A stretch of 64,000 bases of DNA, taken from assembly GCA_963720545.1 (NCBI GenBank), contig OY970399.1, forward strand, positions 1,408,001 through 1,472,000. The letters are read 5' to 3'. Source of the DNA: an uncultured Acidobacteriota bacterium. GTDB taxonomy: Bacteria; Acidobacteriota; Vicinamibacteria; Fen-336. The position numbers and the translations under genes are program-made. Below, piece by piece: positions 60,065 through 64,000 of the stretch. How positions within the stretch are numbered: the stretch's first letter is position 1; the number at the start of each line of letters is the position of its first letter. The notes below the pieces were generated by a model. It was given only the letters and a program-made list of their open reading frames with translations. It had not been told where the DNA came from and searched no databases.

Positions 60065-61324
60065 TCAGGATGAAACGACGAAGCGCAGGACGTCCACCGC
60101 CTCGACGGCTGTCGGTCCGAGGACGTGATCGGGACGCGGCGTCAACGTGAGCCCGTCGATGTCGGCGATGCCAGGCAGGAGCAGCAGCTCGACACGCCGG
60201 CCGTTGCGGAGCACGTCGCCGGGATCCACTGTGAGCGCGCGGCGCCCGCCGTCATAGGTCAGCTTGACCGCGTCGAACGGCCGGTCGCCGGGCATCACGG
60301 GCCCGGCGTAGCGCAGCATCACGCGGCCGGCAAAGGTTGCCTCGTCCATGTCCTTGCTGAACTGCACGACGAAGCGGGTGTCGGCGGCGACTTCATTTTC
60401 ACCATCGAGCGGCAGCGCGAACACCACCACTGGCGGCACCTTGGGACGCTCTGGCGGCGGTGGTGGCGGCGCGGCTTCGGCGGTCGCCGACGGCGCCGTG
60501 GTGAGGAACAGCTGCTGCGCCTCGACGTAGGTGACGCCGTTGATCGTCTTCGCGCGGCCGACGATCTCGAGCCACTTGTTGGTGTCGCGCTTCAGCCCGG
60601 CATCGAGGTCGAAGCCGCTGCCCTTCGGCTTCTTGCCGGTGACCCATACGGCGAACAGGTCGTCCTTCACCACCCAGTCCTCCGACTTGCGCTGGCTCTT
60701 CACCGGCAGGTCGCCGTAGAGGTTGTGGCCGCGGAACTTGCCGACGATGCGGATCACCTTGCCGTCGCTGGTGCCCGGGTTCTTCACCAGCCGCTCGAGC
60801 GTGACGCGCTGCGACTCCTGCATCTTCTTGATCTTGAGCGGCGAGACGTCGGAGATCGAGAACATCGTGATCGAGTACTGCGGCATCGACGGGTTGTCCT
60901 TGCGGTTCGGCAGCGGCGGCAGCTGCGGATCGGTGCACTGGCTCTCGAGCCCGCAGGCCCGGTTGTACTCCTGCTGGTACGGAATCTCGCGCACCACACC
61001 AGTGACTTCCACCGGCTTGCCCATGAACTGGTTGAGGTCGCTGCCCGAGGCCATGCTCGGCATCGGGATGACGAGCACGGGCTCGCACTCGCCCCGCAGG
61101 GTCCAGTAGCGGTTCATCTCGAAGATGTCGAGGTTGCCCGAGACGCGGTAGTTCTGCTTGTTGACGTTGGCGCCGCGCGTCACGTCGCAAAGGGAGACGT
61201 CCTTGGGCGCTCCGTAAAGGCCGGTGAGCGTGTCTGTGCCGCCGTAGATCTGGGCCCGCGCCGCAACCGCAAGCAGGGCCAGGGCTGCCAGGGCGGCTGC
61301 CGGAGTGAGGAGCCTGCGGACCAC
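60065..61324 (-). CDS. Secreted protein with two OB-fold-like segments and a C-terminal Ig-like (Big_5-like) domain
   Basis: Signal peptide; GKPVEVTGVV and GKVIRIVGKF; PPPPPP linker; PVVVFALPLDGE...VVQFSKDMD...GIADIDG. Confidence 0.7.
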   Translation of the reverse strand: MVRRLLTPAAALAALALLAVAARAQIYGGTDTLTGLYGAPKDVSLCDVTRGANVNKQNYRVSGNLDIFEMNRYWTLRGECEPVLVIPMPSMASGSDLNQFMGKPVEVTGVVREIPYQQEYNRACGLESQCTDPQLPPLPNRKDNPSMPQYSITMFSISDVSPLKIKKMQESQRVTLERLVKNPGTSDGKVIRIVGKFRGHNLYGDLPVKSQRKSEDWVVKDDLFAVWVTGKKPKGSGFDLDAGLKRDTNKWLEIVGRAKTINGVTYVEAQQLFLTTAPSATAEAAPPPPPPERPKVPPVVVFALPLDGENEVAADTRFVVQFSKDMDEATFAGRVMLRYAGPVMPGDRPFDAVKLTYDGGRRALTVDPGDVLRNGRRVELLLLPGIADIDGLTLTPRPDHVLGPTAVEAVDVLRFVVSS

Positions 61325-61422: not shown

Positions 61423-63549
61423 ATGGCGCAGGAATTCCGGCCGTACGTGCCCGACAGCGAGAACCCGCCGGAATTCACGGCCCGCGCAATCCTGATTGGC
61501 GTCGTCTTCGGCATCATCTTCGGCGCCGTCACCGTCTACATCGGACTGCGCGCCGGCCTCACCGTGGCGGCATCCATCCCGATCGCGGTGCTCTCGATCA
61601 GCATGCTGCGCGCCCTCGGCCGCGCCTCGATCCTCGAGAACAACCTCATCCAGACGACCGGCTCGGCGGGCGAATCGGTGGCGGGCGGCGTCATCTTCAC
61701 GGTGCCGGCGCTCATCTTCCTCGGCTTCGACCTGGAGCTGTCGCGCACCACCATCCTGGCGATGATCGGCGGCCTGCTCGGCGTGCTGTTCATGATTCCG
61801 CTGCGCAAGCAGCTGATCGTGAAGGAGCACGGCAACCTCCTCTATCCCGAGGGCACCGCTTGCGCCGACGTGCTGATCGCTGGCGAGAAGGGCGGCTCGT
61901 TCGCCAGTCGCGTGTTCGCCGGCCTCGGCATCGGCAGCCTCTACACCGCCGTCCAGAATCCGTTCGTGCTGAAGCTCATCAACCCGGAGCCTGCCTACAA
62001 CCCGGGCTGGCTGCCAGGCGCATCGCTCCGCGCCGCGACCACCTCGGAATACCTCGGCGTCGGCTACATCATCGGGCCGCGCATCGCCGGCGTGATCTTC
62101 GCCGGCGGCGTCTTCTCCTGGCTCGTCATGATGCCCGCCATCCGTTTCTTCGGCAGTCTGGTGCCGACGCCGATCTATCCGAGCACCATCCCCATCGGCG
62201 CCATGACCTCGGACGAGCTGTGGCGCTTCTACATCCGTTACATCGGTGCCGGCGCGGTGGCGGCCTCGGGGCTCATCACGCTCGGCAAGACGCTGCCGAC
62301 GATCGTCGCCGCCCTCAAGGCCGGCGCTGCCGACCTGCGCAAGCGCGGCACGGAGTCGGCAGCCGCGGGCGGGCGCACCGACCGCGACCTGAAGACCACG
62401 GTGGTCCTCATCGGTTCGGCCGTGATCACCGCGATGATGTGGGCGTTCCTCACCTTCAAGCCGGTGCCGGGCGCACCCACGGGCCTGTTCGCCAACCTGC
62501 TCGCGGCGGTGCTGGTCGTCATCTTCGGCTTCCTGTTCGTGACCGTGTCGTCGCGCCTCGCCGGCCTCATCGGCACCTCCTCGAACCCGATCTCCGGCAT
62601 GGCGATCGCCACCCTGATGGCCACCTGCGGGGTTTTCTACCTTGTGGGCTGGACCAGCGCCGCGTACGGCGCGCTGGCGCTGATGATCGGCGGCGTCGTC
62701 TGCATCGCCGCGGCCAACGCCGGCAACACCTCGCAGGACCTGAAGACCGGCTTCCTGGTCGGCGCCACGCCGGCGGCACAGCAGAAGGGCCTGTTCGCGG
62801 GCGTCATCGTCTCGGCGCTCGTCATCGCCTTCACGCTGCAGGCGATGAACAAGGCTCTCGAGCAATACGTGCCCGCCGACTTCGCGATCGAAATTGCGGC
62901 GCTGCCCGACGGCGTCAAGGTGAAGGACAACAACTTCCAGCACGACGGCCGCACCTACACGCTGCTGAACGTGCTCGGCTCCAAGACCATTCCCGAGGGC
63001 CTCTACCTGTTGAACCCGCAGACCGGGCGCGTCGAGACGCAGTGGATCCAGGGCATCGGCAGCGCCGCCGCCCCGGCGCCGCAGGCGCGCCTCATGTCGG
63101 TGGTGATCAACGGCATCCTCAACCAGAAGCTGCCGTGGGGCCTCGTGTTCCTCGGCGTGTTCGTGGTGATCTGCGTCGAGCTCCTCGGCATCCGCTCGCT
63201 GAGCTTTGCGGTGGGCTCCTACCTCGCGATCGGCACCACCGCGGCGATCTTCTGCGGCGGTGTGGTGCGCTGGCTGGCGGAGCGCGGCACCGAGAAGCAC
63301 GCGGGTGAGGAAGAGACGAGTTCCGGATCGCTGTTCGCGAGCGGCCTGATCGCGGCGGGCGGCATCGTCGGCCTGCTGGGCATCGGCCTGCAGCTGCTCG
63401 AGACATCCAGCTACATCCCGAAGGGCATGACGAACCTCGGCAAGTACGTCCCGGGCGTCCACGACAGCCAGCTCATCGGCATCCTTTGCTTCGCCGCGCT
63501 CGCCGGCGCGCTCTACCACTTCGCCCGCAAGCCGCTCGCCAGCAAGTAG
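61423..63549 (+). CDS. OPT-family oligopeptide transporter
   Basis: GLTVAASIP, ILENN, YPEGTACA, SSNPISGM, QDLKTG, PAPQA; ATG 61423 with GAGGAGG SD. Confidence 0.93.
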   Translation: MAQEFRPYVPDSENPPEFTARAILIGVVFGIIFGAVTVYIGLRAGLTVAASIPIAVLSISMLRALGRASILENNLIQTTGSAGESVAGGVIFTVPALIFLGFDLELSRTTILAMIGGLLGVLFMIPLRKQLIVKEHGNLLYPEGTACADVLIAGEKGGSFASRVFAGLGIGSLYTAVQNPFVLKLINPEPAYNPGWLPGASLRAATTSEYLGVGYIIGPRIAGVIFAGGVFSWLVMMPAIRFFGSLVPTPIYPSTIPIGAMTSDELWRFYIRYIGAGAVAASGLITLGKTLPTIVAALKAGAADLRKRGTESAAAGGRTDRDLKTTVVLIGSAVITAMMWAFLTFKPVPGAPTGLFANLLAAVLVVIFGFLFVTVSSRLAGLIGTSSNPISGMAIATLMATCGVFYLVGWTSAAYGALALMIGGVVCIAAANAGNTSQDLKTGFLVGATPAAQQKGLFAGVIVSALVIAFTLQAMNKALEQYVPADFAIEIAALPDGVKVKDNNFQHDGRTYTLLNVLGSKTIPEGLYLLNPQTGRVETQWIQGIGSAAAPAPQARLMSVVINGILNQKLPWGLVFLGVFVVICVELLGIRSLSFAVGSYLAIGTTAAIFCGGVVRWLAERGTEKHAGEEETSSGSLFASGLIAAGGIVGLLGIGLQLLETSSYIPKGMTNLGKYVPGVHDSQLIGILCFAALAGALYHFARKPLASK

Positions 63550-63559
63550 CTGCCCGCGC

Positions 63560-63595
63560 AAAAAAACCCCGGAGGCGGTTGCCCGTCCCCGGGGT
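63560..63595 (-). terminator. Intrinsic terminator facing the minus strand
   Basis: Minus strand: ACCCCGGGGACGG-GCAA-CCGCCTCCGGGGT then TTTTTT (A7 at 63560-66 on plus). Confidence 0.85.
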
Positions 63596-63655
63596 CGGCG
63601 AGCTGATTGGGATTCGCTCGGGTCGCTTGCTTGAGGCTTCTACGAAAGAGCGGCT

Positions 63656-63706
63656 CTAAGCGTCAGCCACCTCGCGCTTTTCGTCCTGTGTGCGGCAACT
63701 ACCCAC
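63656..63706 (-). CDS. 16-aa micro-ORF MGSCRTQDEKREVADA
   Basis: GTG 7 nt after AAGGAGG; TAG at 63656-58; translated by hand. Confidence 0.5.
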   Translation of the reverse strand: MGSCRTQDEKREVADA

Positions 63707-63734
63707 TGGACCACCTCCTTTCTCGCGTAGGCGA

Positions 63735-63764
63735 AGTGTAAGGAGCCCTCTTCCCCGTCGGCAA
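63735..63764 (-). promoter_or_regulatory. Sigma70 promoter of the small transcript
   Basis: Minus strand: TTGCCG-18 nt-TACACT. Confidence 0.65.
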
Positions 63765-63859: not shown

Positions 63860-63889
63860 TTGACACTCGCGCGACCGGCGTGCTACTTT
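63860..63889 (+). promoter_or_regulatory. Sigma70 promoter of the next gene
   Basis: TTGACA-18 nt-TACTTT with a TG extension. Confidence 0.65.
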
Positions 63890-63936
63890 TCGCGCCTCTA
63901 CAAGTCTATTTGTATGAGGTACTTGGAGCCCATTTC

Positions 63937-64000
63937 CTGAAGCTGAAAGTTCTCGGTTGCTACGGCGGAACCGTACCTGGGAAAGGCATGACCTCGTTCC
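63937..64000 (+). CDS. 5' end of a probable class II cyclic-nucleotide phosphodiesterase / MBL-fold hydrolase (partial)
   Basis: (M)KLKVLGCYGGTVPGKGMTSF resembles the VLGCxGG...TSF N-terminus of that family; only 21 codons visible; CTG 63937 or TTG 63910 start. Confidence 0.55.
   Translation, partial: MKLKVLGCYGGTVPGKGMTSF

What the first reader, a model, noticed from the sequence alone, without database searches (positions are those of the whole stretch)
63560..63764. Unannotated ~170-nt transcription unit with an 18-nt complement to the 16S rRNA 3' end and a 16-codon ORF
Seen, all on the minus strand and in order: TTGCCG-18-TACACT promoter; AGAAAGGAGGTGGTCCAG a few nt after the predicted start; GTG ORF MGSCRTQDEKREVADA-TAG; ~60-nt 3' region; GCAA-loop hairpin with a U7 tail. 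The terminator points away from the OPT gene, so something is transcribed on the minus strand. Established: bacterial 16S genes typically end ...CTGGATCACCTCCTTTCT. The plus strand at 63706-63723 reads CTGGACCACCTCCTTTCT (17/18), and the one difference gives a G-U wobble, so all 18 nt could pair. That is far longer than a normal SD and reaches into helix 45. Inference: a ribosome-binding or 30S-sequestering small RNA, a 16S 3'-maturation modulator, or a very strongly initiated micropeptide gene. I do not recognise it as a described family.
Basis: partly seen in the sequence, partly recalled or inferred. Interest (0 to 1): 0.85.

Follow-up and report, generated by a model that had tools for sequence, protein, structure and literature searches.

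The report
Ribosome-docking small RNA with mini-ORF
This is a real, free-standing gene for a folded RNA of about 170 bases that can pair with the whole free tail of 16S ribosomal RNA and carries a tiny reading frame whose peptide seems not to matter; RNAs of this kind are already on record, but what they are for is still unknown.

Summary
Real, but not undescribed. The 18-nt element matches the genome's own 16S end (17 Watson-Crick pairs plus one G-U). Promoter, ORF and terminator are conserved in 15 of 24 other genomes of the family. It fits the published rre type of small mRNA (rreB, Hahn 2016: 17-nt Shine-Dalgarno, GTG start, binds 30S, weakly translated; function unknown; described in Alphaproteobacteria only). 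It is also a distant homologue of Rfam Ms_IGR-5 (RF02471): this copy scores 28.2 bits against a cut-off of 45, while three Acidobacteriota relatives pass. Comparison across Acidobacteriota and Actinomycetota gives two covarying helices, P1 and P2, that Rfam's consensus does not draw. The start codon stays in frame with the helix in 46 of 46 homologues and in 32 of 33 later hits, while the peptide drifts. Best reading: the RNA docks on 30S, and its slow translation unzips the RNA and sets its fate; the peptide is a by-product. Binding, expression and purpose are untested here. This scan has already noted this RNA type on many other genomes, including a close relative of this locus.

The parts
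63759..63764 (-). -35 box TTGCCG (family consensus TTGACA)
   Evidence: 15 of 15 family homologues have TTGAC(A/T) here; not called by the consensus scan
63735..63740 (-). -10 box TACACT
   Evidence: TA(C/A)ACT in 15 of 15 family homologues
63560..63728 (-). predicted transcript, about 169 nt; start inferred at the conserved A seven bases after the -10 box
   Evidence: inference; not measured
63724..63727 (-). P1 5' strand (CGCG), pairs with 63673-63676 and closes a loop holding the Shine-Dalgarno and the start codon
   Evidence: 98.5% of cells paired; G-C in 15 and A-U in 19 of 34 sequences at one pair
63706..63723 (-). 18-nt extended Shine-Dalgarno, complement of the 16S 3' tail; its last base is the G of GTG
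63656..63706 (-). 16-codon ORF, GTG to TAG (13 codons in most of the family)
   Evidence: frame kept, sequence drifting
63673..63676 (-). P1 3' strand (CGCG)
63664..63673 (-). GAGGUGGCUG: second Shine-Dalgarno-like word (GAGGUG) and P2 5' strand (63664-63671); the stop lies five codons after GAG
   Evidence: GAGGUG invariant in alignment A3, where it was also the anchor used to pick most rows
63640..63650 (-). candidate internal anti-Shine-Dalgarno (CUCUUUCGUAG) within the variable P3 domain; longer relatives carry a 16S-tail mimic here instead
   Evidence: best downstream duplex -19.5 against -13.5 in shuffles (place read by eye); low confidence, not in the MFE fold
63606..63615 (-). conserved linker GAAUCCCAAU, partner unknown
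   Evidence: also in the Ms_IGR-5 consensus
63597..63605 (-). P2 3' strand (CAGCUCGCC)
63560..63596 (-). intrinsic terminator hairpin with U7
   Evidence: compensatory changes in the stem
61423..63549 (+). neighbour, tail to tail: OPT oligopeptide transporter (PF03169)
   Evidence: same neighbour in 13 of 15 family loci
63901..64000 (+). neighbour, head to head: open frame for a class II cyclic-nucleotide phosphodiesterase-like protein, running past the window end; start codon not fixed
   Evidence: PF02112, E 1e-15

Best explanation
A stand-alone small RNA that engages the ribosome and uses its own translation as a switch. (1) It is transcribed from its own sigma-70-type promoter (inferred from conservation). 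(2) Its 5' loop pairs with the whole free 16S tail of a 30S subunit (complementarity shown; binding shown only for rreB). (3) Initiation is slow, because the duplex runs up to a weak start codon and must partly melt before that codon can enter the P site (inferred; measured for rreB). (4) When the ribosome does elongate, it unzips P1 and then P2, which lie in the last codons of the ORF (helices shown by covariation; unzipping inferred). (5) The freed GAGGUG lies 8 nt before the last sense codon, so it could re-pair with the 16S tail while the ribosome sits on the stop codon (inferred). (6) The opened RNA is refolded or degraded (for rreB, changing the start codon to a stop raised the half-life from 10 to 37 min). 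The RNA would thus report the supply of initiation-competent ribosomes, with the output carried by the 3' domain and the conserved AAUCC linker; the peptide is a by-product. The downstream target is not identified.
For: Pairing is selected: in 63 homologues found without an exact pattern, 93 of 112 departures from the perfect complement (positions -5 to +11) keep a G-U pair. Translation is selected: the first start codon is in frame with GAG-GUG in 46 of 46 homologues over 17 combinations of spacing and length, and in 32 of 33 later hits (27 ATG/GTG/TTG, 5 CTG); in L009 a 2-nt loss is offset by a shifted TTG. The peptide drifts: 11-22 residues; 161 of 208 pairwise codon differences in codons 2-7 of 12 family ORFs change the residue; GCT is fixed twice although it is 5.7% of Ala codons in this genome. 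P1 and P2: 97.3% of 373 cells paired, 28 cells changed on both sides, 0 of 500 shuffles as high, slid controls 21-46%; one P2 pair occurs as G-C, C-G, A-U and U-A and changes the encoded residue. The P1 3' strand never begins before +16 from the start codon, about the edge of an initiating ribosome (recalled). rreB data from PMC5711450.
Against: No transcript, binding or translation data for this RNA (one search is uninformative). Folded alone, the window copy does not form P1/P2 (pair probabilities near 0); the imposed fold is 3 kcal/mol above the minimum, and 1 kcal/mol above it when the Shine-Dalgarno is held open. Covarying cells are shared by kin, so they count few events. My automated out-of-sample P2 test was weak (31 of 33 against 17.4 expected), and P1 of 4 or more pairs was found in only 23 of 33. 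The fixed stop distance and the invariant GAGGUG are partly built into how rows were picked. A-to-G is a transition and six core positions were fixed by the anchor. Third codon positions still vary most (148 against 62 and 81), so weak peptide selection is not excluded. The RNA was not found in 14 of 40 other family genomes searched. No output of the switch is identified.
Confidence: 0.45

Rival explanations
1. A stoichiometric cap or decoy: the RNA holds idle 30S subunits by the 16S tail, protects the tail from trimming or keeps subunits out of use, and is released by its own rare translation.
For: -34.8 kcal/mol duplex covering the entire free tail; full-length rreB co-sediments with 30S and stays in the ribosome pellet without a start codon; weak start codons.
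Against: 20-fold overproduction of rreB did not change growth, and the authors judged rreB far rarer than ribosomes; single-copy gene, patchy in the family.
Confidence: 0.2
2. An ordinary small-protein gene whose peptide is the effector, kept at low level by the over-long Shine-Dalgarno.
For: Frame and stop strongly kept; Hahn et al. report peptide conservation within clades; third positions vary most in the family; some peptides end in Ala-Ala or Asp-Ala, like protease tags (recalled).
Against: Length 11-22 residues and free drift of codons 2-7; the conserved end is explained by P1/P2, with residue-changing compensatory pairs; stop lost in L016 and L264; synthetic RreB and RreR were unstructured.
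Confidence: 0.12
3. A guide or checkpoint RNA for 16S 3'-end maturation or decay, pairing with immature or damaged 30S in which helix 45 is open.
For: The complement runs 2-4 bases into the helix 45 strand, further in copies whose start codon has moved downstream (L195, L199, L201).
Against: The complement ends at the mature 16S end and does not read the precursor in any of five other genomes compared or in this one (one of the five, L164, is a match ahead of a long gene); the in-frame ORF would be unexplained; rreB sits on 30S-sized particles.
Confidence: 0.1
4. A trans-acting sRNA whose 3' domain acts on mRNAs or a protein, with the 5' ribosome dock serving only as a stabiliser (as in stabilising Shine-Dalgarno elements, recalled).
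For: The conserved AAUCC linker has no partner inside the RNA; the dock sits within 5 nt of the predicted 5' end.
Against: A stabiliser needs no start codon, yet frame is kept, and in rreB the start codon shortens the half-life. No target was sought.
Confidence: 0.1

Closest known systems
Ms_IGR-5, Rfam RF02471 ('Actinobacteria sRNA'; M. smegmatis IGR-5 = ncMSMEG15794c per PMC10454040)
   Same: Same order of parts in four above-cut-off actinobacterial members (L229-L232): ACACG 5' end, extended Shine-Dalgarno, 12-codon ORF through CGUGAGGUG to a stop, AAUCC-like linker, P2 partner, terminator. The Rfam model aligns over the whole window RNA (E 0.00096).
   Different: Window copy scores 28.2 against 45 bits; host is Acidobacteriota; GTG start abuts the complement (10-11 nt spacing in L229-L232). 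The Rfam consensus shown does not draw P1 or P2 and the family is listed as a non-coding sRNA.
rreB / rreR small mRNAs of Alphaproteobacteria (Hahn et al., PMC5711450)
   Same: Stand-alone RNA of about 165-170 nt; 17-18-nt complement of the 16S end that includes the G of a GTG start; ORF of 14-18 codons; only the 5' bases of the complement predicted free (and the paper's Fig. 2 legend).
   Different: No homology shown beyond the ribosome-binding site: model R2 scores only that part of an rreB-like locus (L101, 20.3 bits); rreB-like loci lack the ACACG/CGUG P1 by eye. One rreB-like ORF ends GAGGUCGCCCGCUAG (L026), suggestive only. Different phylum and gene neighbours.
CC2171, Rfam RF01867 (Caulobacter sRNA; expression also shown in Methylorubrum, bioRxiv 10.1101/2022.01.24.477521)
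   Same: Consensus begins with the same extended Shine-Dalgarno and GUG; rreB-like loci score 45-49 bits on it.
   Different: Window copy 21.7 against 75 bits, matching only the Shine-Dalgarno and terminator.
Extended Shine-Dalgarno motifs of ordinary Staphylococcus aureus mRNAs (PMC13009471)
   Same: Pairing with the 16S tail extends towards the start codon and goes with weak start codons.
   Different: A short extension on normal protein genes that aids initiation; not an 18-nt complement on a free-standing structured RNA.

Membership tests
rre-type small mRNA (Hahn 2016) | At least 16 nt complementary to the 16S 3' end | tested here: met
   18 nt, 17 Watson-Crick + 1 G-U with the genome's own 16S; longest strictly Watson-Crick run is 12
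rre-type small mRNA (Hahn 2016) | Complement ends in the first base of a GTG start of a short ORF | tested here: met
rre-type small mRNA (Hahn 2016) | Stand-alone transcript with own promoter and terminator | tested here: inconclusive
   signals conserved but missed by the consensus scan; transcript not shown
rre-type small mRNA (Hahn 2016) | Co-sediments with 30S, weakly translated, start-codon-dependent decay | not testable with these tools
   needs bench work
rreB or rreR orthologue group | Sequence homology of RNA body and peptide | tested here: not met
   R2 matches only the ribosome-binding site of rreB-like L101; peptides of rreB-like and rreR-like loci differ. The paper's own peptide alignments are figures and were not seen.
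Rfam RF02471 Ms_IGR-5 | Score at or above the gathering cut-off of 45 bits | tested here: not met
   28.2 bits; same-family copies that matched score 25.8-35.4; three other Acidobacteriota copies pass (L213 60.0, L135 51.6, L120 47.7)
Rfam RF02471 Ms_IGR-5 | Shared motifs in the same order over the full length | tested here: met
Rfam RF02471 Ms_IGR-5 | Shared secondary structure with true members | tested here: met
   P1/P2 kept across 30 Acidobacteriota and 4 actinobacterial rows; this is my structure, not Rfam's, and the window copy alone does not fold into it
Rfam RF01867 CC2171 | Score at or above 75 bits | tested here: not met
   21.7 bits
tmRNA / tRNA | ARAGORN or Rfam match | tested here: not met

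The most novel reading that the evidence does not exclude
Ms_IGR-5, CC2171 and the rre genes are branches of one widespread, overlooked class of ribosome-engaging RNA. In the Ms_IGR-5 branch the 16S-pairing site sits in a loop closed by P1, so the free 16S tail would wind through the loop and be locked there; the ORF is a ripcord whose translation opens the lock, and a second Shine-Dalgarno holds the subunit again at the stop codon. The RNA would cap idle 30S subunits or count them for the cell, a housekeeping role beside tmRNA.
Probability: 0.2. Interest if true: 0.8.

Novelty: new member of a known kind. Interest (0 to 1): 0.45.

Why it matters
rre-type RNAs have had no known function since 2016, and Ms_IGR-5 is listed as a non-coding actinobacterial sRNA. 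This copy ties the two descriptions together, shows the Ms_IGR-5 anatomy in Acidobacteriota and Myxococcota, and supplies a covariation-backed structure in which the ORF runs through the helices. That gives concrete mutants to test in culturable hosts such as Streptomyces or M. smegmatis. The locus itself is one more member of a kind already catalogued.

Tried and rejected
RNA evidence: one soil metatranscriptome contig of a relative covers 63469-63702 at depth 2.3 with 12 differences and 5 gaps; it has no strand, runs into the OPT gene and may be DNA, so it shows nothing. Promoter/terminator scan: negative for this unit. Placing the genome by RecA or 16S identity to named genomes: inconclusive (74-78% and 77-81%). 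Exact two-motif pattern: 3 of 301 phylum genomes, too strict; single-motif pattern 20 of 301. Alignment A1 held one row on the wrong strand and was not used. Match L018 (24 nt of terminator, no Shine-Dalgarno) and five weak hits L204-L208 were dropped as not homologous; three pattern hits (L209 cut by a contig end, L210 and L211 without the anatomy) and the 6-codon type L223 were left out of the frame count. Phage-borne copies with P1/P2: 4 pattern hits, all chance matches in coding DNA. Family genomes without a hit: 12 of 37 loose pattern matches in five genomes inspected, none was the RNA; nothing after the OPT gene in G012 and G004. Control genomes: two rang at E up to 1, none at 0.05. R2 in five genomes of other phyla: 1 of 5. 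Covariation of the 5' extension with lineage-specific 16S tails: the tails compared were identical over the paired part, so untestable. A partner for the AAUCC linker: none found by eye. Supplement of PMC10454040 (expression of IGR-5) was not held as readable text.

Full report
Observation. The genome has one 16S gene, whose end pairs with 63706-63723 at 17 Watson-Crick positions and one G-U. No other site in the genome comes within two mismatches, and of 6084 GGAGG windows this is the best partner of the 16S tail after the 16S antisense strand. The consensus scan missed both the promoter and the terminator, and the RNA folds no better than shuffles, so the unit rests on conservation.

Close relatives. 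A DNA search of 41 genomes matched 17, including this one; 15 of 24 other family genomes carry a true homologue. All 15 have TTGAC(A/T) and TA(C/A)ACT, the same 5' end, the extended Shine-Dalgarno, a short ORF and a terminator. 13 of 15 loci show the OPT gene tail to tail. With model R2, 26 of 40 other family genomes match; two genera gave 0 of 3 each, so the RNA is patchy or locally diverged. Most relatives are 60-100 nt longer and carry an internal mimic of the 16S tail (13 of 16 rows); the window copy is a short form.

Phylum and range. G185, listed as same phylum, holds its hit at the same contig place as G341, whose title names a class of Acidobacteriota. That genome is marked unpublished; the placement also fits named loci L088 and L120, which share the motifs. 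R2 (5' half, 37 training rows) matched 75 of 151 phylum genomes at E up to 0.01; 41 are below 1e-5, one copy each, 14 of them training genomes (only 31 candidates scored per genome, so misses mean little). It matched 33 of 61 Actinomycetota genomes below 1e-5 and 7 of 41 genomes of the Corallococcus phylum at E up to 1e-4, five of them below 1e-7. Claims that use unpublished genomes: L135 (phylum, 51.6 bits, one C-G row) and L284, L291, L294 (three of the 33 later hits).

Structure. RNAalifold on 16 family rows suggested two long-range helices. On 34 rows from Acidobacteriota and Actinomycetota, P1 (5' end with the four bases ending in the G of GAG) and P2 (GGUGNCUG with CAGN..ACC before the terminator) are 97.3% paired, with 28 cells changed on both sides, 0 of 500 shuffles as high and slid controls at 21-46%. 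34 of the 46 homologues were used; the subgroup with a shifted P2 register (GGUGGCGU with ACGCCACC) and two long family rows were left out. Kin share changes, so events are few: one P1 pair switches between A-U and G-C, one P2 pair takes four Watson-Crick forms. Later hits add further P1 and P2 variants by eye, but my scripted test there was weak (31 of 33 against 17.4 by chance; P1 of 4 or more pairs in 23 of 33). The window RNA folded alone does not adopt P1/P2; the imposed fold costs 3 kcal/mol, or 1 with the Shine-Dalgarno held open.

Translation against peptide. The first start codon is in frame with GAG-GUG in 46 of 46 homologues, over 17 combinations of spacing (5-14 nt) and length (the script scored 45, L231 was added in 64), and in 32 of 33 later hits; the remaining one was not scored. 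Frame was not a selection criterion; the stop distance partly was. Starts include GTG, TTG and CTG. Peptides run from 11 to 22 residues; 161 of 208 pairwise codon differences in codons 2-7 of 12 family ORFs change the residue, though third positions vary most. The conserved C-terminal residues follow the helices, with a fixed GCT that is 5.7% of Ala codons here. Translation as an event looks selected; the product looks largely free.

Pairing with 16S. In 63 homologues found without an exact pattern, 93 of 112 departures from the perfect complement keep a G-U pair; the U at +8, whose transition would break a pair, never changes (caveats in the Against line). The complement stops at the mature 16S end and enters the helix 45 strand by 2-4 bases. 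An internal anti-Shine-Dalgarno of -18 kcal/mol or better occurs in 22 of 63 against 8.2 in shuffles.

Mechanism. I commit, at 0.45, to a translation-gated RNA: dock on 30S, slow initiation, unzipping of P1 and P2, possible re-pairing of GAGGUG at the stop, then refolding or decay. Complementarity, frame and helices are shown by comparison; binding, slow initiation and decay are borrowed from rreB; the output is unknown. Rivals are a 30S cap, a peptide gene, a maturation guide and a stabilised trans-acting sRNA.

Known families. It meets the two sequence hallmarks of Hahn's rre type. It is not a formal member of RF02471 (28.2 against 45 bits) but a distant homologue: relatives in its phylum pass the cut-off, and four true members share its anatomy. 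Descent shared with rreB is not shown.

Literature seen. PMC5711450: parts 1-4 of 6 (abstract to Discussion) and part 1 of 2 of the supplement; figures not seen. PMC10454040: two passages; its sRNA table was not readable and may bear on expression. bioRxiv 10.1101/2022.01.24.477521: six passages. PMC11701678: one passage. PMC13009471: twelve passages. The original IGR-5 and CC2171 papers were not seen. Nine searches found no paper that links rre to Ms_IGR-5, places either in Acidobacteriota or gives a function; the library lacks most subscription papers.

Earlier notes of this scan. I had the rreB paper and the Rfam hit before consulting them. They report the same kind of RNA on many other genomes and one close relative of this locus. 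They are unchecked and are not counted as support.

Verdict. Real; new member of a known but unexplained kind; interest 0.45.

Noticed in passing
L025, L028, L029, L033-L035, L038, L040, L043-L048, L052, L054-L060 (viral contigs): Many of the 36 viral pattern hits put a 15-16-nt complement of the 16S tail before small Lys/Gly-rich ORFs of 15 to over 100 codons, without the RNA structure described here.
   Followed up: no
L075, L113, L145, L223: A second Acidobacteriota type: extended Shine-Dalgarno, GTG, only 6 codons (VRYxLR-like) and a terminator, about 85 nt in all.
   Followed up: no
L297, L300 (Corallococcus phylum), L288, L289: Copies with a near-perfect internal mimic of the 16S tail downstream of the stop, able to mask their own Shine-Dalgarno (-24 to -29 kcal/mol).
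   Followed up: partly
L283, L285, L286, L287, L294: Actinobacterial copies whose in-frame start at normal distance is CTG.
   Followed up: partly
L195, L198-L201, L264, L273: One Acidobacteriota family has a 1-nt insertion after GGAGG, an ATG moved to 11-14 nt, and in several copies a complement reaching further into helix 45.
   Followed up: partly
L016, L264: The stop five codons after GAG is lost; the frame runs on for 5-6 codons.
   Followed up: no
window 63860-63889 (+): TTGACA, 18 nt, TACTTT: likely divergent promoter of the phosphodiesterase-like gene; not called by the scan.
   Followed up: no
window 60065-61324 (-): 419-aa probably exported protein with one bacterial Ig-like domain (PF13205) and no other Pfam match, divergent from OPT.
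   Followed up: no
G000:C1:3854100-3854886 (-): RecA is matched in two pieces in different frames; possibly an assembly error.
   Followed up: no
L073, L109, L114, L146, L148, L152, L175, L179: Planctomycetota loci with the extended Shine-Dalgarno and 9-13-codon ORFs ending in GGUGG- or GGGCUGC-like words in another frame; a separate architecture.
   Followed up: no
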